A DNA stretch of 64,000 nucleotides from Anaerolineae bacterium (GTDB lineage: Bacteria > Chloroflexota > Anaerolineae > Aggregatilineales > Phototrophicaceae), in contig JALHOR010000015.1 in the NCBI GenBank assembly GCA_022842885.1, forward strand, positions 2,219 through 66,218, read 5' to 3'. Positions 46,606-63,369 of this stretch are shown here, in pieces. Under the pieces are notes generated by a model. That model was given only the letters and a program-made list of their open reading frames with translations. It ran no database searches and was not told the DNA's origin. The position numbers and the translations under genes were made by a program. How positions within the stretch are numbered: position 1 is the first letter of the stretch; each line of letters opens with the position of its first letter.

Positions 46606-46606
46606 T

Positions 46607-55165: not shown

Positions 55166-55311
55166 ATTTTTAAACGCTTCTTTGTGCCATTGTGGGTTAT
55201 AGCCTTCCCCGCAAAAACACCTTCCATTTGGTTGACGAACTCCCCGTTTTACGCTACGCTTTCCATGAGATAGAAATCCAAATCGTTATTTAATTGTTCA
55301 TAGAAGCCAAC

Positions 55312-56169
55312 ATGATAAAAACTGTTTTGGTCATTGCGCCTCACGCCGATGATGCGGCGGCATTCTGTGGCGGGCAAATCATTCATTTTGCCAACGACGG
55401 TTGGCGCGTGGTCATGGTGCGCGTGACCAACGATGAAACTGATTCGATTGGTCTGAGCCGCGAAGACACGATTCGCATCAACACCGAGCAGATGCATACT
55501 GCCGCCAAAATTTTGGGCATTCAGGAGATTGTTGAACTCGGTTATGTGACCGATACCTTGGGTGATGTTTCGCGGGTGGCACTGCGCGAAAAATTTATTC
55601 GCCTTTTTCGCCAACATCGCCCTTATGCCGTGATGTCTTTTGACCCCTATGCTCAGTACGAGCCTAATCTTGACCATACCGTGACAGCGCAAGCCGTTGA
55701 AGAAGCCTACTGGACAGCCACGTTTGATAAACATCATCCCGAACACTTGGCAGAAGGATTGCAACCGCATTCGGTGTGTGAACGCTGGTATTATGCCCGC
55801 CAACTGCCCCGCGTTACCTGTGCCATAGACATCAGCAGCGTGCTAGAACGGCGCATTGACGCATTAGCGGCACATGTCGAAATGATGAAAAATACGCTCA
55901 ATCAATCGCGTTTACAAATGGCAACCTGGGGGCGGCGTTTCCCGGCATTGGATGCAGCAATTACAAGCGGCAATGTACGCCCATTTTTGAGCATGTGGTT
56001 GCGCTATCAATATGCCCAAATCGGCGCGAAACATGGCATGACCTATGCCGAAGAATACCGCGTAGACCGTTTTGGCGGCGCAGAGGCTCTCTTGCAATCC
56101 GAATCGATTCCGCTGCCGGACATGGAAGATGAACCCATGCACAATCGTCCATGGTTCGAGTTTCCATAG
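55312..56169 (+). CDS. PIG-L / LmbE-family N-acetylglucosaminyl deacetylase
   Basis: VLVIAPHADDAAAFCGGQIIHFANDGWRVVMVRVTNDETD, the PH(P/A)DD metal-site motif. Start taken at ATG 55312. Confidence 0.8.
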   Translation: MIKTVLVIAPHADDAAAFCGGQIIHFANDGWRVVMVRVTNDETDSIGLSREDTIRINTEQMHTAAKILGIQEIVELGYVTDTLGDVSRVALREKFIRLFRQHRPYAVMSFDPYAQYEPNLDHTVTAQAVEEAYWTATFDKHHPEHLAEGLQPHSVCERWYYARQLPRVTCAIDISSVLERRIDALAAHVEMMKNTLNQSRLQMATWGRRFPALDAAITSGNVRPFLSMWLRYQYAQIGAKHGMTYAEEYRVDRFGGAEALLQSESIPLPDMEDEPMHNRPWFEFP

Positions 56170-56235
56170 GTGAATTTTGGCTAATAATTCATGAAACTAA
56201 CTCACTTACCCACTCTAACTGCCGTATGCGTGACT

Positions 56236-56273
56236 CCCCCTCTCCATGCAATGGAGAGGGGGTTGGGGGTGAG
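56236..56273. repeat. GGGTGAGGG-family hairpin element inside an operon spacer
   Basis: CCCCCTCTCCAT-gca-ATGGAGAGGGGG 12-bp stem, then ttgggggtgagg. Confidence 0.8.
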
Positions 56274-56330
56274 GTTGGAAAAACAACACTGCAAAATATT
56301 TCATTCATTTTACCGATAGGAGAATTGTTG

Positions 56331-57626
56331 ATGAAATCCTTACGTCGTATGCTGCTCTTGTTACCTGTTCTGCTCCTTTTGCTATCTGGGTTGGTTTCCG
56401 CGCAGGAAGTCACCGTCACGTTTTGGTCACATGCGTATCCCCCGCGTGAGGCGCTTGACCGCGAACTGATTGCCCAATTTGAAGCAGAAAATCCCGGCAT
56501 TAAGGTCGAATATGTGATTCCGCCGTCTGCCAATGATACCGAATATATCATCGCGTTATTCACCGCCATTGCCGGCGGCGAAGGTCCCGATTTGTTTAAT
56601 GTCGTGATTCAGGGTGTGCCGGATTTAATTCCGTCGGGTGCGGTTGCCCCGGTGGATGCCGCCCTACTCGGTTATGACTCTACGGATGATATTGTGGCAG
56701 AATACTTGGAAGGTAGCATCGCGGCATTTGTAGGCGATGATGGCTTGCTCTATGGTTTCCCCACTGAAATCGGCAATTATGCGCTGTATATCAACACCAC
56801 CTTGTTTGAAGAAGCGGGACTCGACCCGGTAGCCGATGCCCCGGCGACATGGGAAGACATGCTGGAAATTGCCCCGGCGCTGACCAAACGCGATGATGCG
56901 GGTAATCTGACGCAGCGTGCCTTTGATTTTGCCTATCCTGTGCCAGATGAACAACTTGACCCGCTGGTGGTCACGGCAACATTGGCGTATCAATTGGGCA
57001 GTGGCATCGTCAATGACGATAAGACCGAAGCCTCTTTTGGTGATGAGGGTTGGGTACAAGCAGTGAACTTCGTCAAAGACTGGTCGGAAATGTATGGCGA
57101 CCCCAATATTCAGCCGGCGTGGATGGGTTTTTATGAAGGCACCGTTGCCATGCATCTTTCAGGTCCTTGGTATCAGGCGCAGGTGTTACAAGCCCAAAAT
57201 CCTGATTTGATTGATGATTTGGTCATTGTGCCAACCCCGCGCTTTGCCGAAGGCGTCAATCAGGCGGGCAGTTATACTTATGGGTATGGCTTATTTGTGA
57301 ATGCCGCCAGCACACCGGAAGAACAAGCCGCCGCGCAACAATTGGCATTTTTTATGTCCAGTTTCCCGGAACGCTATTTGACCGAAACACTCTTGCTGCA
57401 ACCGCGCACCACCTTGGTAGAAAATACCGAAGTCATGGAAAGCAGTTTTGCAGCATTGTTCATCGCCGATATGGCAGGGGCGCCCTCATTGCCCGTCATT
57501 ACCAACGGGTTTGAAGCCAGCGGCATCTTCGGGCGAGCATTGGCATCCATCTTATTTGAAGGCGCAGATGTAACCGAAGCTCTGGCTGGCGCTGCCGAAG
57601 AATTTACCGCAGTGATTAATCCATAG
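56331..57626 (+). CDS. Extracellular solute-binding protein, family 1 (sugar ABC)
   Basis: TAGGAG SD. Signal peptide MKSLRRMLLLLPVLLLLLSGLVSAQE. The 60 upstream codons in the track run through the repeat element. Confidence 0.85.
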   Translation: MKSLRRMLLLLPVLLLLLSGLVSAQEVTVTFWSHAYPPREALDRELIAQFEAENPGIKVEYVIPPSANDTEYIIALFTAIAGGEGPDLFNVVIQGVPDLIPSGAVAPVDAALLGYDSTDDIVAEYLEGSIAAFVGDDGLLYGFPTEIGNYALYINTTLFEEAGLDPVADAPATWEDMLEIAPALTKRDDAGNLTQRAFDFAYPVPDEQLDPLVVTATLAYQLGSGIVNDDKTEASFGDEGWVQAVNFVKDWSEMYGDPNIQPAWMGFYEGTVAMHLSGPWYQAQVLQAQNPDLIDDLVIVPTPRFAEGVNQAGSYTYGYGLFVNAASTPEEQAAAQQLAFFMSSFPERYLTETLLLQPRTTLVENTEVMESSFAALFIADMAGAPSLPVITNGFEASGIFGRALASILFEGADVTEALAGAAEEFTAVINP

Positions 57627-57664
57627 AAAAGTAGGTGTTAGTAAAGAATATTTCGGTAATTTGT

Positions 57665-57731
57665 GGGATGACACGCAGGTCATCCCCTACGCGAAACCTG
57701 CTTTTCGGAGGGGCGACCTGATGTGGTCGCC
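57665..57731. repeat. Double-hairpin element (7-8-bp stems, 6-nt loops)
   Basis: GGGATGAC-acgcag-GTCATCCC (57665-57686) and GGCGACC-tgatgt-GGTCGCC (57712-57731). The second hairpin is related to the one at 3127-3146. Confidence 0.75.
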
Positions 57732-57801
57732 CATCATCAAACGTACTATTAAATCTAACTTCACATCACCCGCCCAAAATCACACCAGTGGTCTTCAGCA
57801 T

Positions 57802-58728
57802 ATGGATAGACCTGTTCGTTTAGCCCCATCCCAACGTTTCATGCTCACCCGGCTGAATATGTATACCCGCCGCAAATTGTGGGGGTTGGCATTTGTATTG
57901 CCTGCGGTCATTTTCTTCGCCATCTTCGCGTATTATCCTATTTTTTCGGCGGCGCGGTACAGCCTGACTGATTATAACGGGCTGCGTCCAGCGCAAGAGA
58001 TTGGGTTAGCCAATTACGAATTTTTGCTGGAAAGCAACCGTTTTGAGAAAGTGTTCGTCAATACGCTGCGATTTGTGGCGGGCTATGCGCTGCCCACATG
58101 GATAATCGGCTTGGGATTTGCGCTGATTTTTGTGCAGGAGTTTAAAGGACGCGGCATTTATCGCACGCTGTATTTCATGCCGATTCTGCTTTCCGAAACG
58201 GTGATTTCGATTGTGTGGCGCTTGTTATATCAGCAGCAAGGGGCAATTAATACGTTATTTGTTGCGCCGTTTAACATGGGGGCAGGTATTAATTGGATTA
58301 CTGACCCACAAGCCGCGCCTATTGCCGTCATGATTGTGTCTATCTGGCGCGTGTTTGGCTACTACATGATTATCTTTATGAATGGGCTGCAAAATATCCC
58401 GGTAGAATATTATGAGGCAGCACGGGTAGATGGCGCGAATACGCGGCAAATTTTCTGGCAGATTACGATGCCCCTGCTGCGCCCGACGAACATGTTTGTG
58501 ATTGTCGTCACCTTTATCACGGGTTTCCAGAGTTTTGCCTATCAATTTCTCATCACCAAAGGCGGTCCCAACGACGCCACCAATGTTTTAGGCTTGATGA
58601 TTTATGAAGAAGCCTTCGCCAAATTTAACTTGGGGCGGGCATCGGCAATGTCACTGGTGTTGTTTGCGCTGCTGCTGGTGTTGACCATTTTCCAGCTTTA
58701 TTTGCTGCGGGAACGAGAAGAAATCTAA
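57802..58728 (+). CDS. CUT1-type sugar ABC transporter permease (MalF-like)
   Basis: EAA loop EYYEAARVDGANTRQIFWQITMPLLRP. Start is uncertain (ATG at 57802, 57841 or 57859; none has a clear SD). Confidence 0.8.
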   Translation: MDRPVRLAPSQRFMLTRLNMYTRRKLWGLAFVLPAVIFFAIFAYYPIFSAARYSLTDYNGLRPAQEIGLANYEFLLESNRFEKVFVNTLRFVAGYALPTWIIGLGFALIFVQEFKGRGIYRTLYFMPILLSETVISIVWRLLYQQQGAINTLFVAPFNMGAGINWITDPQAAPIAVMIVSIWRVFGYYMIIFMNGLQNIPVEYYEAARVDGANTRQIFWQITMPLLRPTNMFVIVVTFITGFQSFAYQFLITKGGPNDATNVLGLMIYEEAFAKFNLGRASAMSLVLFALLLVLTIFQLYLLREREEI

Positions 58729-58814
58729 GTATGATGTAGGTCAATTTTCTTGATTTGCAAATTAAATTTCAGGGTAAACTGAACTTCAGAAAACAAAGTT
58801 TGCAGGAGCATCAT

Positions 58815-59072
58815 ATGGCAACCCCAGTTTTAGAGAAATCACCCACTGACGAAGTGATGGATTTTTTGTTATCCGCCCCCACACCCGAACAAATCTTGGC
58901 ACTGCGCCCTTCTGCGGCAGTACAGGAACGTCTGCGTTATTTACTGGATGGCAATCGCAATGCGACCTTGAATGATGCAGAACGGGCTGAATTGGATATG
59001 TATCTGCAAGTAGAGCATTTTATTCGTCGTTTAAAAGTCCGCGCTCAAGAAAAATTGGCGGAAAACGAATGA
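58815..59072 (+). CDS. Small helical protein (85 aa) coupled to the HNH gene (antitoxin / immunity-like by position only)
   Basis: AGGAG SD 6 nt before ATG 58815. Its stop overlaps the HNH start (ATGA at 59069-59072). No motif recognised. Confidence 0.6.
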   Translation: MATPVLEKSPTDEVMDFLLSAPTPEQILALRPSAAVQERLRYLLDGNRNATLNDAERAELDMYLQVEHFIRRLKVRAQEKLAENE

Positions 59073-59491
59073 CTTATATCTCTGAGTCTCTCCGCCGATT
59101 GGTTATTCAACGGGCAAAATCGCGTTGTGAGTATTGCTGTTTACATGAATTTTATGCATTTTTTGCACACGAAATTGATCATATCTACGCTGAAAAACAT
59201 GGCGGCGATACTATTGAGACCAATCTTTGTCTTGCCTGTGCAGATTGTAACCGACACAAAGGGAGCGATATTTGTTCCCGTGACCCTTTAACGGGAGATG
59301 TGGTGACTTTATTTCATCCGCGTCGCCATGAGTGGCAAACACATTTTCGTCTTGCGGAAACGGGTCTCATTGAACCTTTGACAGCAAATGGCAGAGTAAC
59401 TGAAAGGGTATTGCAATTTAATCGTATAGAACTTGTCACAGAACGCGCTCGTCTTATCGCTAAAGGTGGTTACAAGGAAAACGACACATGA
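59069..59491 (+). CDS. HNH endonuclease
   Basis: CEYCC...HEIDHIYAEKHGGDTIETNLCLACADCNRHKG (Cys4 + H-N-H). Its stop overlaps the next permease start (ATGA at 59488-59491). Confidence 0.85.
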   Translation: MTYISESLRRLVIQRAKSRCEYCCLHEFYAFFAHEIDHIYAEKHGGDTIETNLCLACADCNRHKGSDICSRDPLTGDVVTLFHPRRHEWQTHFRLAETGLIEPLTANGRVTERVLQFNRIELVTERARLIAKGGYKENDT

Positions 59492-60366
59492 CGGCTGCAT
59501 CCTCTTTTTCGACAACTTCTGCACCACCGCAATCCCGCCGTACTCATTGGCATTGGGGACAGCGAATTTTATTTCACGGACTGCTCTTAGTCGGCGTGGT
59601 CGTCGTGTGCTTGCCACTGTTCTGGATGATTTCAGCATCGCTTAAGCCGCCAAAAGAAATTTTTACTGTGCCAGTCCAATGGCTACCCACCGAAATCCGC
59701 TGGCAAAATTATGTGGATGCATGGAATACTGCGCCGTTTGCCCGCTATTTTTTCAACAGTGTCTATGTCGCTGGCATGACCACCGGCTTAAATTTATTCT
59801 TTTGCAGTTTAGCGGGTTATGGGTTCGCCAAATATCACTTTCCCGGTAAAAATATCCTGTTCATTTTTGTGTTGGCAACGCTGATGATTCCGTTCCATGT
59901 AGTCATGATTCCATTGTGGATGATGATGCGCGACTTCAAATGGCTAGATAGTTTTAGCGCGGTGATTATCCCCGGCATGATGAGTTCCTTTGGCATTTTT
60001 TTGATGCGCCAATATATCCAAACGCTGCCCAATGATTTGTTTGAAGCCGCCCGGATTGATGGCGCAGGCGAAATTTATTGTTATCAACACATTGTGTTGC
60101 CATTATCCAAAGCGCCATTGGCGGCACTGGCGGTATTTGTGTTTCTGGATAGCTGGAATAGTTTGTTATGGCCCCTCGTGGTAGTTAAAAGTGAAGAGAT
60201 TCGCACGCTGACGTTAGGGTTATCCGCATTCAGTTCGCAATATTCCACGTCGTATCATTTGTTGATGGCGGCTTCCACCATCATTATCTTGCCGATGATT
60301 GGGTTGTTTTTCCTGCTGCAACGCTATTTTATTCAGGGTGTCACACTCTCTGGTATCAAAGGATAA
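59488..60366 (+). CDS. CUT1-type sugar ABC transporter permease (MalG-like)
   Basis: EAA loop DLFEAARIDGAGEIYCYQHIVLPLSKAP. Six hydrophobic helices. Confidence 0.85.
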   Translation: MTAASSFSTTSAPPQSRRTHWHWGQRILFHGLLLVGVVVVCLPLFWMISASLKPPKEIFTVPVQWLPTEIRWQNYVDAWNTAPFARYFFNSVYVAGMTTGLNLFFCSLAGYGFAKYHFPGKNILFIFVLATLMIPFHVVMIPLWMMMRDFKWLDSFSAVIIPGMMSSFGIFLMRQYIQTLPNDLFEAARIDGAGEIYCYQHIVLPLSKAPLAALAVFVFLDSWNSLLWPLVVVKSEEIRTLTLGLSAFSSQYSTSYHLLMAASTIIILPMIGLFFLLQRYFIQGVTLSGIKG

Positions 60367-60371
60367 CGCTT

Positions 60372-61664
60372 ATGTTGATGGCTGGCGTTGGCAAAACGGT
60401 TATCACGCCCAAAGTGGGGGCAATGCTCTATGGCTATACCCACCCCACGCGCAATAATCCCTCAATTGGTGTGCATGATGATTTACATGCGCGGGCAGTG
60501 GTCTTGCAAACGCGCGGTTTTTCGCTGGCATTATGCAGCGTGGAATTATGTTATCTGCGGGCGCAAGATGTCGCCCAAATTCGCCAGCGTGTCAGCGCCC
60601 AATGTGGGTTATTTGGGCAAGATATTTTTATTGCAACCACCCATACTCACTCAGGTCCCGCCACGCATATCGAAAGCGAATGGGATTTTTCGCTGATAGA
60701 CCGCATCGCTGAAGCGATTTTGATTGCTTATAACCATCGCCAACCAGCACGTTTTGGCAGCGGCATCGGCTTATTGCACCATTGGCACATCAATCGCCGC
60801 TGGCTAGACCGCCCGGTAGACCCGGCACTGGGCGTCTTACGGATTGAAACGCTCGATAATAAGCCGTTGGCTGTAATGGGTTCTTTTGGCTGCCATGCGG
60901 TGGTGATGGGCGCGGATAATTTGTTTATCTCTGGCGATTACCCCGGTTATTTCAGCCGCATCATCGAAAAAACGCTGGCAAACAACAGCGTCGCGTTGTT
61001 CTTTCCCGGTGGCGCAGGCGATGCTAACCCCATGACCAGCGTTGTCCGAGCGCGATTGACACAAGGCAACCCCATTGGCACGTTGGGCGATTTGGTAGAT
61101 TATTATGGCAAGTTCCAAGAAGGCAAACGTGACCATTGGAACATCGGGGATAGAGCAGGTGGCACTTTTTCTGAAGCCGAAGAATTGGGGCAAGCGGTCG
61201 CCGACGAAGTGCTGCGCGTTTACCAAGCCATTGTCACCGCTGAACAAGTTCGCGTGTGGACAGACCGCATTGTCGTCAATGGCAAAGCTGACCCCAGCGA
61301 ACCTTATTTCCCCGGCACTTTGACACCCGATTTTCTGCAACTGCTGCCAGAATTGGAAAATAACCAACTGCCGCTAGAAATCATGCTGGTGGGCATTGGC
61401 GACAGTGTGTTGGTTGGGCATCCCGGCGAAACCTTCAGCGAGAATGCCGTGCAGTTGCGGATTGCCGCGCAGCAAATGGGGTATAAACATCCCCTGCTCA
61501 TCACCTATGCCAACGGCAATTACGCCTATTTGCCCCCGGCGTATGTGTGGGACGAAGGCGGCTATGAAATTAGCGCATGGGTGAGTTTTTTCGGCATCAG
61601 CCGCCAAGTGCAAGAGCGTATTTGGAATGCCATCGCGCCTATCTTGAAACAGCGCAAGCCGTAG
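60372..61664 (+). CDS. Neutral/alkaline ceramidase N-terminal-domain-like hydrolase (short bacterial form)
   Basis: AGVGKTVITPKVGAMLYGY..GVHDDLHARAVVLQ..FIATTHTHSGP parallels the Pseudomonas neutral ceramidase N-terminal pattern (GAGKADIT..GY..G.H..ARA.V..ATHTHSGP). Confidence 0.65.
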   Translation: MLMAGVGKTVITPKVGAMLYGYTHPTRNNPSIGVHDDLHARAVVLQTRGFSLALCSVELCYLRAQDVAQIRQRVSAQCGLFGQDIFIATTHTHSGPATHIESEWDFSLIDRIAEAILIAYNHRQPARFGSGIGLLHHWHINRRWLDRPVDPALGVLRIETLDNKPLAVMGSFGCHAVVMGADNLFISGDYPGYFSRIIEKTLANNSVALFFPGGAGDANPMTSVVRARLTQGNPIGTLGDLVDYYGKFQEGKRDHWNIGDRAGGTFSEAEELGQAVADEVLRVYQAIVTAEQVRVWTDRIVVNGKADPSEPYFPGTLTPDFLQLLPELENNQLPLEIMLVGIGDSVLVGHPGETFSENAVQLRIAAQQMGYKHPLLITYANGNYAYLPPAYVWDEGGYEISAWVSFFGISRQVQERIWNAIAPILKQRKP

Positions 61665-63367: not shown

Positions 63368-63369
63368 GA

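What the first reader, a model, noticed from the sequence alone, without database searches (positions are those of the whole stretch)
58815..59491. Small-ORF + HNH endonuclease pair wedged between the two permease genes of an ABC operon, translationally coupled on its downstream side
Seen in the sequence:
- The other CUT1 loci in this window have directly adjacent permease genes (1-2-nt gaps at 46606 and 63368-63369).
- Here, permease 1 ends at 58728. After 86 nt comes an 85-aa helical protein with a strong AGGAG SD. Next comes a 140-aa HNH nuclease (CxxC..HEIDH..N..CxxC..NRH) overlapping it by ATGA (59069-59072). The HNH stop then overlaps the start of permease 2 by ATGA (59488-59491).
- There are no repeats, integrase or IS ends around the pair.

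Inference: a two-gene selfish, toxin-antitoxin-like or defence-like module (nuclease plus cognate small partner) inserted into an essential-looking operon junction. It has become locked in, because permease 2 translation now appears to depend on it. This addiction-by-operon-position strategy is worth examining.
Basis: partly seen in the sequence, partly recalled or inferred. Interest (0 to 1): 0.6.

Follow-up and report, generated by a model that had tools for sequence, protein, structure and literature searches.

The report
Nuclease-plus-antidote cassette inserted in sugar-transporter operon
A 759-base two-gene cassette, a small DNA/RNA-cutting enzyme plus a small helical partner that probably keeps it harmless, has been inserted exactly between two transporter genes. 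It belongs to a large, widespread and apparently unstudied family that behaves like a toxin-antitoxin or defence module.

Summary
It is also a true insertion. Four loci carrying the orthologous operon (PIG-L, SBP, permease 1, permease 2, ceramidase-like) have only 1-2 nt between the permease genes; here 759 nt (58729-59487) lie between them.

The pair is one of nine HNH pairs in this genome. Every HNH has an upstream partner, and six further partner genes stand alone.

Across at least 8 phyla, 42 of 45 HNH relatives have the partner immediately upstream. The two genes co-diverge (r = 0.82). The partner is modular: a conserved helical core alone, or fused to an N-terminal HTH or an RHH-like segment, as in type II antitoxins. 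The partner family has about 7,200 cluster representatives and no Pfam or NCBIfam model.

The HNH model matches PtuB, the Septu/retron nuclease, over its full length, but no PtuA is present.

The closest cassette relatives sit between hsdS and hsdR of type I R-M operons, some with the same ATGA junction.

The "selfish TA-like or defence-like insertion" reading is therefore supported. The "locked in / addiction by operon position" reading is not: the coupling comes with this cassette lineage, and most family members stand alone. Toxicity, neutralisation and transcription remain untested.

The parts
57661..58728 (+). ABC permease 1 (BPD_transp_1). This is the upstream host gene; the true start is probably internal to this ORF.
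   Evidence: Pfam PF00528, E 3e-17. The C-terminus aligns with orthologues in L051, L052 and L054.
58729..59487 (+). Inserted segment (759 nt) that is absent from orthologous operons.
   Evidence: In L051, L052, L053 and L054 the permease 1 stop is followed by 1-2 nt and then the permease 2 ATG. GC is 42-45% here against 47-50% in the flanks.
58729..58814 (+). Leader. The first ~40 nt are of unknown origin and include ATGATG at 58732-58737 and the palindrome ATTTGCAAAT at 58753-58762. The last ~45 nt resemble the spacer upstream of R-M-linked relatives.
   Evidence: Local alignment of 58770-58814 with the L056, L045 and L057 leaders gives shuffle p of 0.007-0.014. No promoter-like or terminator-like site was found.
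58804..58808 (+). AGGAG Shine-Dalgarno of the small ORF.
   Evidence: Read directly from the sequence. An (A/G)GGAG is conserved in most relatives.
58815..59072 (+). 85-aa helical partner protein (putative antitoxin or inhibitor of the HNH).
   Evidence: No Pfam or NCBIfam family. The AF2 model has four helices, pLDDT 86, with no significant PDB fold match. There are 12 paralogues in the genome and 7,207 family representatives.
59069..59491 (+). 140-aa PtuB-like HNH nuclease (putative toxin or effector).
   Evidence: PF01844, E 1.3e-8. PADLOC PtuB, E 1.6e-11. AF2 pLDDT 94. Best folds are PtuB of retron Ec78/Eco7 and Septu, TMq 0.62-0.66 over 143-148 columns. The catalytic D37/H38/N52/N61 and both CxxC pairs are conserved.
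59474..59478 (+). AAGGA, a Shine-Dalgarno-like motif 9 nt before the permease 2 ATG, inside the HNH 3' end.
   Evidence: Read directly from the sequence. The same AAGGA precedes hsdR in L056; it is absent in L055, which has no coupled gene.
59488..60366 (+). ABC permease 2, the downstream host gene, with the native ATG-ACx start.
   Evidence: PF00528, E 1.6e-21. Orthologues at 65-67% identity start ATGACC or ATGGTG directly after permease 1.

Best explanation
A promoter-poor two-gene cassette has been inserted precisely between the permease 1 stop and the permease 2 start of a sugar ABC operon. It is most likely co-transcribed with that operon.

The cassette encodes a PtuB-like HNH nuclease and, just upstream and translationally coupled to it, a small four-helix protein. 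The most likely mechanism is that of a type II toxin-antitoxin-like module. The small protein would bind the nuclease and keep it inactive. Loss or inactivation of the partner (by proteolysis, cassette loss or phage attack) would free the nuclease to cut nucleic acid and stop growth.

This copy most likely descends from a lineage that normally sits between hsdS and hsdR of type I R-M operons. It arrived with part of its upstream spacer and with its 3' end, which already carries an SD and an ATGA junction for whatever gene follows.

Shown: the insertion, the conservation of the pair, the co-divergence of the two genes, the modular partner architecture, the PtuB-like fold and the intact active site.

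Inferred: binding, neutralisation, toxicity, substrate, trigger and route of transfer.
For: Empty site:
- Four loci holding the same operon have 1-2 nt between the permease genes.

This genome:
- There are 9 HNH paralogues at 37-52% identity, and all have an abutting or overlapping upstream partner.
- Six further partner genes stand alone, and no HNH lacks a partner.

Other genomes:
- 42 of 45 HNH loci, from Chloroflexota, Cyanobacteria, Planctomycetota, Verrucomicrobiota, Bacteroidota, Deinococcota, Acidobacteriota, Firmicutes and a deltaproteobacterium, have a partner-like ORF ending within a few nt of the HNH start.

Co-divergence of the two genes:
- r = 0.82, Mantel p <= 5e-4.
- r = 0.73 among the 9 pairs of this one genome.

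Partner architecture:
- The partner occurs as the core alone, or with an N-terminal Cro/C1 HTH. PF13443 reaches E 4e-8 above its cut-off in L090, and E 0.004-0.006 in L093 and L098.
- Other forms carry an RHH-like N-terminus, with only weak RHH_1/RHH_5/HicB hits (E 0.008-0.13).

Decay pattern expected of a toxin:
- HNH is truncated or frameshifted while the partner stays intact in L060, L043 and L047-50.
- Solo partners remain under purifying selection.

Distribution:
- Patchy: 24 of 201 genomes of the phylum, with 1-9 copies each.
- 35 cyanobacterial plasmid records hold the HNH. No phage record holds either gene.

Context and fold:
- The closest lineage lies in type I R-M operons beside PIN and DarT/Macro-like modules.
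- The HNH fold equals PtuB over its full length.
Against: - No experiment and no transcript data exist.
- The partner has no structural or sequence relative among known antitoxins. The best match is YnzC/DUF896, at fold E of 1 and profile E of 9e-4.
- This copy's partner has no DNA-binding domain, so autoregulation is not expected here.
- In 23 other genomes, 16 of 56 HNH hits had no detected partner. These were mostly weak or fragmentary hits, so the 'never alone' rule is firm only in this genome and in the 45 loci.
- RHH assignments are below Pfam cut-offs.
- A partner that activates or targets the nuclease would give the same gene order and the same co-divergence.
Confidence: 0.6

Rival explanations
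1. The pair is a phage-defence back-up tied to restriction-modification, analogous to PrrC/RloC. The small protein would hold the HNH latent, and a phage anti-restriction or other infection signal would release it (abortive infection). This overlaps with the best explanation but makes defence the selected function.
For: - The closest relatives (61-79% identity) sit between hsdS and hsdR in L047-50, L056, L057 and L059, next to PIN and DarT/Macro-like modules.
- The HNH is PtuB-like, and PtuB is a defence effector.
Against: - This genome has no matching hsdR or hsdS.
- Most family members are not next to R-M genes.
- PADLOC has no system model for the pair.
Confidence: 0.25
2. Addiction by operon position. 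The cassette would persist because permease 2 translation has become dependent on translating the HNH gene.
For: - The ATGA overlap lies at 59488-59491.
- The permease 2 SD (AAGGA, 59474-59478) now lies inside the HNH gene.
Against: - The same 3' end (..YK[E/D]ND[T/A], AAGGA, CATGAC) occurs in L056 ahead of hsdR, so it is a feature of the lineage and not a local adaptation.
- A precise loss would recreate the ancestral TAA-N-ATG junction seen in the orthologues.
- About 28 of 43 copies have no downstream same-strand gene.
Confidence: 0.07
3. Homing-endonuclease-like selfish element. The HNH would cut empty sites and the cassette would be copied in by repair.
For: - It is a free-standing HNH gene inserted between genes with no transposase.
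- ATGAYG occurs at both ends of the insert (58732-58737 and 59488-59493).
Against: - No homologue of either gene was found in 50,697 phage records.
- One close lineage occupies at least 4 unrelated sites.
- Nine divergent copies in one genome lie at unrelated sites.
- This model gives no role to the conserved partner or to the solo partner genes.
- The 6-mer repeat has about a 5% chance expectation.
Confidence: 0.05
4. The small protein is a positive factor: a controller (C-protein-like), a targeting subunit or an activator of a restriction-like nuclease, and not an inhibitor.
For: - N-terminal HTH or RHH-like domains occur in many partners.
- The partner sits upstream of and overlaps a nuclease gene, as C genes do.
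Against: - Short forms, including this one, lack any DNA-binding domain.
- No methyltransferase partner is present.
- Solo partner genes are common and conserved.
- HNH genes decay while partners persist.
Confidence: 0.08
5. The pair is an integral, ancestral component of the transporter operon.
For: It is co-oriented with the flanking genes, tightly packed against them, and no terminator was found.
Against: It is absent from all four orthologous operon loci and from about 20 paralogous permease pairs in relatives.
Confidence: 0.01

Closest known systems
PtuB, the HNH effector of Septu (PtuAB) and of retron Ec78/Eco7 systems
   Same: The fold is the same over the whole 140 aa, covering both the HNH core and the C-terminal helical/beta domain. 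TMq is 0.62-0.66, prob 1.00. PADLOC PtuB models hit at E 1.6e-11. PtuB is likewise a nuclease kept in check by a partner.
   Different: There is no PtuA ATPase and no retron RT/msDNA. The protein lacks PtuB's extra ~60-70 residues. The partner is an unrelated 85-aa helical protein. Genes of this family are often multicopy.
Type II toxin-antitoxin modules (for example VapBC, RelBE, HicAB)
   Same: - A small upstream gene overlaps a ~140-aa enzyme gene by 4 nt.
- The partner is built as an optional RHH/HTH plus a toxin-specific C-terminal part.
- The family is multicopy and patchy, occurs on plasmids and in R-M or defence islands, and includes orphan antitoxin-like genes.
   Different: Searches of the paper library found no described type II TA system with an HNH toxin. 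The partner matches no antitoxin family. Toxicity and neutralisation are untested.
Colicin E7/E9 DNase with the Im7/Im9 immunity protein
   Same: An HNH nuclease is neutralised by an ~85-aa four-helix protein. Orphan immunity-like genes also occur. This comparison rests on established knowledge and was not tested here.
   Different: There the nuclease is the C-terminal domain of a secreted toxin, and the immunity gene lies downstream. No fold match of the partner to Im proteins was found.
PrrC/RloC-type latent nucleases embedded in type I R-M operons
   Same: The closest relatives of this cassette lie between hsdS and hsdR.
   Different: The nuclease type differs (HNH rather than HEPN/anticodon nuclease), and a separate small partner is present. 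This copy is not in an R-M locus.
YnzC / DUF896 (B. subtilis SOS-regulon helical hairpin protein)
   Same: The similarity is weak and limited to the central L..K...G.LT..E..EL helical hairpin. Profile E is 9e-4 and it is the top fold hit, at E of 1.
   Different: The match is not significant by fold. There is no HNH neighbour and the function is unknown. This is probably only a shared hairpin motif.

Membership tests
Type II toxin-antitoxin system | Bicistronic unit in which a small antitoxin gene is adjacent to, and coupled with, the toxin gene | tested here: met
   There is an ATGA overlap at 59069-59072. The same arrangement holds in 42 of 45 loci.
Type II toxin-antitoxin system | The toxin arrests growth when expressed alone | not testable with these tools
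   Indirect evidence only: the catalytic residues are intact, and HNH genes decay while partners persist.
Type II toxin-antitoxin system | The antitoxin binds and neutralises the toxin | not testable with these tools
   Only co-divergence is available: r = 0.82, and 0.73 within one genome. No complex prediction was available.
Type II toxin-antitoxin system | The antitoxin carries a DNA-binding domain for autoregulation | tested here: inconclusive
   The window copy has none. Relatives have HTH_26 (E 4e-8 in L090) or RHH-like N-termini with only weak hits.
Type II toxin-antitoxin system | Mobile, patchy and multicopy distribution, including plasmids | tested here: met
Septu (PtuAB) | PtuB-type HNH nuclease | tested here: met
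Septu (PtuAB) | An adjacent PtuA AAA/ABC-type ATPase | tested here: not met
   The neighbours are an 85-aa helical protein and ABC permeases. No ATPase lies upstream in the 45 loci.
Free-standing HNH homing endonuclease | Phage, intron or intein association, with one conserved target site per lineage | tested here: not met
   There are no phage hits. One lineage occupies at least 4 unrelated contexts.
Colicin DNase / Im immunity pair | The nuclease is the C-terminal domain of a secreted toxin, and the immunity gene lies downstream | tested here: not met
   The HNH is a stand-alone 140-aa protein and the partner lies upstream.
Type IV (McrA-like) restriction endonuclease | A modified-DNA-binding domain fused to the HNH | tested here: not met
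   Only the HNH core aligns to McrA (72 columns). No extra domain fits in 140 aa.

The most novel reading that the evidence does not exclude
The PtuB-like HNH plus helical-hairpin partner pair would be a large, unrecognised toxin-antitoxin or immunity family, with about 7,200 partner clusters at 50% identity across many phyla. It would amount to a minimal, ATPase-free relative of Septu. Its nuclease would be restrained by a small protein that has no known fold relative. One lineage would travel as a promoter-poor cassette carrying its own SD and ATGA coupler, which would let it slot between genes of host operons (type I R-M, and here an ABC transporter) without breaking them.
Probability: 0.4. 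Interest if true: 0.6.

Novelty: new variant of a known kind. Interest (0 to 1): 0.5.

Why it matters
If the pair is confirmed, it adds a new toxin class (a PtuB-like HNH) and a new antitoxin or inhibitor fold to the TA and defence repertoire. It would also give a very small, tractable model for how Septu/retron-type nucleases are kept silent. It would account for thousands of gene pairs annotated only as 'hypothetical protein + HNH endonuclease' in cyanobacteria, Chloroflexota and Planctomycetota. The clean insertion at an operon junction, with empty sites available for comparison, also shows how such cassettes can ride inside host operons without polar damage.

Tried and rejected
- Forty relatives, including two of the same genus, hold no orthologue of the operon. 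The best permease 2 match is 47%, so no empty site was found there. Orthologues came from the protein database instead.
- Same-genus genomes are too divergent for nucleotide-level boundaries at another copy, C31 (about 68% DNA identity, synteny lost).
- DNA homology between cassettes is confined to the coding regions plus about 45 nt of leader. The first ~40 nt of the leader match nothing in the genome or the loci.
- No promoter or terminator consensus lies in or around the cassette, and no flanking repeats were found.
- Pfam, NCBIfam and PADLOC gave nothing for the small protein. PDB sequence searches with two long-form partners gave nothing useful.
- Literature searches for an HNH toxin in type II TA systems found none. 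The NetFlax preprint mentions HNH only as PtuB with an ATPase.
- A complex prediction of the two proteins was not possible with the tools.

Full report
**Observation.**
- Permease 1 ends at 58728.
- An 86-nt spacer follows, with AGGAG at 58804-58808.
- The 85-aa ORF runs 58815-59072.
- It overlaps by ATGA a 140-aa ORF (59069-59491). That ORF carries CxxC, HEIDH, N, CxxC and NRH.
- The stop of the 140-aa ORF overlaps by ATGA the start of permease 2 (59488).
- The two other CUT1 loci in the window have permease gaps of 1 and 2 nt.
- No flanking repeats, integrase, IS ends, promoter consensus or terminator consensus were found.
- Pfam calls the flanking genes BPD_transp_1 and the 140-aa protein HNH (E 1.3e-8). 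The 85-aa protein matches nothing in Pfam, NCBIfam or PADLOC.

**It is an insertion.** Forty relatives, including two of the same genus, hold no orthologue of this operon. In their paralogous operons the permease genes always abut. A search of the large protein collection found permease 2 orthologues at 65-67% identity. Their contigs carry the same operon: PIG-L deacetylase, SBP, permease 1, permease 2 and a ceramidase-like hydrolase. In all four loci (L051, L052, L053, L054) permease 1 ends TAA, 1-2 nt follow, and permease 2 begins ATGACC or ATGGTG. In the window, 759 nt (58729-59487) lie between the same two points. Permease 2 still begins ATG-ACG. The insert has a slightly lower GC content (42-45% against 47-50%).

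**The pair is a conserved unit and multicopy.** The genome holds nine HNH paralogues at 37-52% identity and twelve paralogues of the small protein.
- Every HNH has an upstream partner that abuts or overlaps it.
- Six partners are 80-90 aa proteins like the one here.
- Three partners are about 135 aa. Their C-terminal half aligns with the small protein, and their N-terminus looks like a ribbon-helix-helix.
- Six further small genes stand alone. No HNH stands alone.

In the species-representative genomes, 60 loci encode relatives of the HNH. They come from Chloroflexota, Cyanobacteria, Planctomycetota, Verrucomicrobiota, Bacteroidota, Deinococcota, Acidobacteriota, a Heliomicrobium and a deltaproteobacterium. 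In 42 of the 45 loci examined, a partner-like ORF ends within a few bases of the HNH start. One of the three exceptions is cut by a contig end.

Pairwise distances of partners and HNHs correlate at r = 0.82 (Mantel p <= 5e-4). Among the nine pairs of this one genome, where species phylogeny cannot explain the correlation, r = 0.73. The paralogues here are as far from each other as from copies in other phyla. They are therefore separate acquisitions and not recent duplications.

Against their nearest relatives, both genes show dN of 0.16-0.24 with saturated dS. Solo partner genes show the same.

**Distribution.**
- 24 of 201 genomes sampled across the phylum carry the HNH, with 1-9 copies each. 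Some copies contain stop codons.
- In the 23 carrier genomes other than this one, 40 of 56 HNH hits have a detectable partner. The rest are mostly weak or partial hits. 19 of 59 partner hits have no HNH.
- 35 plasmid records, all cyanobacterial, carry the HNH, and 20 carry the partner. They are annotated 'hypothetical protein' plus 'HNH endonuclease'.
- None of 50,697 phage records carries either gene.
- A profile of the partner finds 7,207 cluster representatives at E <= 1e-3, of which 1,098 reach E <= 1e-10. Lengths are 63-226 aa, and the core lies at the C-terminus of the longer ones. A few carry two tandem cores.

**Anatomy of the proteins.** The partner models as four helices (10-19, 24-28, 34-48 and a long 54-84), with pLDDT 86. 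No PDB fold match is significant. The best is B. subtilis YnzC/DUF896, at fold E of 1 and profile-to-sequence E of 9e-4. Conserved positions are R39, L43, L52, E56 and E59.

Longer relatives add an N-terminal domain:
- A Cro/C1 HTH, significant in L090 (PF13443, E 4e-8, above the cut-off) and weaker in L093 and L098.
- An 'M..ITIxVPDELaxRL...LPxLL' segment typical of an RHH. Pfam supports this only weakly (E 0.008-0.13).

This layout, an interchangeable DNA-binding head plus a toxin-specific tail, is the standard build of type II antitoxins.

The HNH models with pLDDT 94. Its best structural matches over the full length are PtuB chains of retron Ec78/Eco7 and of E. coli Septu (143-148 columns, TMq 0.62-0.66, prob 1.00). 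McrA, Cas9, Cap5 and Gme HNH match only the ~70-residue core. PADLOC's PtuB models also hit, at E 1.6e-11. D/E37, H38, N52, N61 and both CxxC pairs are conserved or invariant in the family. No PtuA-like ATPase is nearby.

**Where this copy came from.** The nearest relatives are 72-79% identical in the partner and 61-73% in the HNH. They lie in unrelated places:
- after a response regulator (L043, HNH frameshifted);
- after serS (L055);
- as a solo partner between an isocitrate-dehydrogenase-like gene and a penicillin-binding protein (L045);
- in four cases, between hsdS and hsdR of orthologous type I R-M operons (L047-50, L056, L057, L059). These sit beside a PIN pair or a DarT/Macro-like pair.

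In L056 the HNH ends ...YKDNDA with the stop inside GCATGACC, which is also the start of hsdR. In the window it ends ...YKENDT with ACATGACG, the start of permease 2. L055, with no downstream gene, ends ...YAELDT-TAA. The C-terminus, the stop position and the AAGGA Shine-Dalgarno nine bases upstream therefore belong to the cassette lineage.

The last ~45 nt of the window's leader resemble the hsdS-to-partner spacer of L056 and the leader of L045. L045 still reads ...VRV**, like an hsdS C-terminus. Shuffle p is 0.007-0.014, which is suggestive only. This genome has no matching hsdR or hsdS.

A plausible but unproven route is illegitimate recombination from an R-M-linked donor. The right-hand join would fall in the shared CATGAC. 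ATGATG just after the permease 1 stop nearly repeats ATGACG at the permease 2 start. The chance expectation for that is about 5%.

**Mechanism.** The best-supported reading is a type II TA-like module in which the small helical protein binds and silences a PtuB-like nuclease.

Support:
- The pairing is obligatory, and the two genes co-diverge.
- The partner is built like an antitoxin.
- Orphan partners are frequent and conserved.
- HNH genes decay first.
- The family is patchy and multicopy, and occurs on plasmids and inside R-M or defence neighbourhoods.

Whether its selected role is addiction, abortive-infection defence or something else cannot be decided here. The substrate (DNA or tRNA), the trigger and the binding itself are all inferences. 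In this copy the partner lacks a DNA-binding head, and no promoter consensus is seen. Expression is therefore probably driven by the sugar operon's promoter.

**The 'lock-in' idea.** It is not supported.
- The coupler is inherited with the cassette.
- Permease 2 keeps its ancestral start.
- A precise deletion would recreate the ancestral junction.
- About 28 of 43 family copies have no same-strand gene downstream.

**Novelty.** I found no Pfam or NCBIfam model for the partner and no PADLOC system for the pair. I also found no paper describing an HNH toxin with a cognate antitoxin. I therefore rate this a new variant of a known kind: a TA/defence two-gene module with a PtuB-like effector.

**Limits.**
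- No complex model could be made.
- The RHH calls are weak.
- The locus search was seeded with patterns from this protein.

Noticed in passing
window 55294-61664: The whole operon (PIG-L deacetylase, SBP, two permeases, ceramidase-like hydrolase) is conserved in order in L051, L052 and L054, at about 65% permease identity. It is therefore a real, recurring uptake-and-processing operon.
   Followed up: partly
window 58753-58762: A perfect 10-bp palindrome, ATTTGCAAAT, lies in the part of the leader that matches nothing else. Its chance expectation is roughly 0.07, and no role is known.
   Followed up: no
window 58732-58737 and 59488-59493: ATGATG directly after the permease 1 stop nearly repeats ATGACG at the permease 2 start. 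It may be a short target duplication or a microhomology footprint (about 5% by chance).
   Followed up: partly
own genome contig C34:21221-22874 (minus strand): Two HNH pairs lie in tandem. One has a short partner and one has a 135-aa RHH-like partner.
   Followed up: partly
own genome C246:2372-2614 and C21:8329-8646: Two solo partner genes, each next to a near-identical MGMT/ATL-like gene, indicate a duplicated segment.
   Followed up: no
L057:1549-3519: A DUF4433/DarT-like ORF plus a Macro-domain (DarG-like) ORF lie just upstream of the cassette and hsdR, forming a stack of TA-like modules inside a type I R-M operon. These identities were judged by eye from the sequence and not scanned.
   Followed up: no
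L047-L050:2167-5018: In one type I R-M operon, an IS200/IS605-type Y1 transposase lies between hsdM and hsdS. Between hsdS and hsdR lie a solo partner gene, a degenerate 80-121-aa ORF where the HNH should be, and a PIN pair.
   Followed up: partly
P0241, P0243, P0245: Some family members are fusions of two tandem partner cores in one protein of 174-194 aa.
   Followed up: no
small-protein profile A1: There is weak but repeated similarity of the central hairpin to B. subtilis YnzC/DUF896 (profile E 9e-4; Pfam DUF896 E 0.006-0.065).
   Followed up: partly
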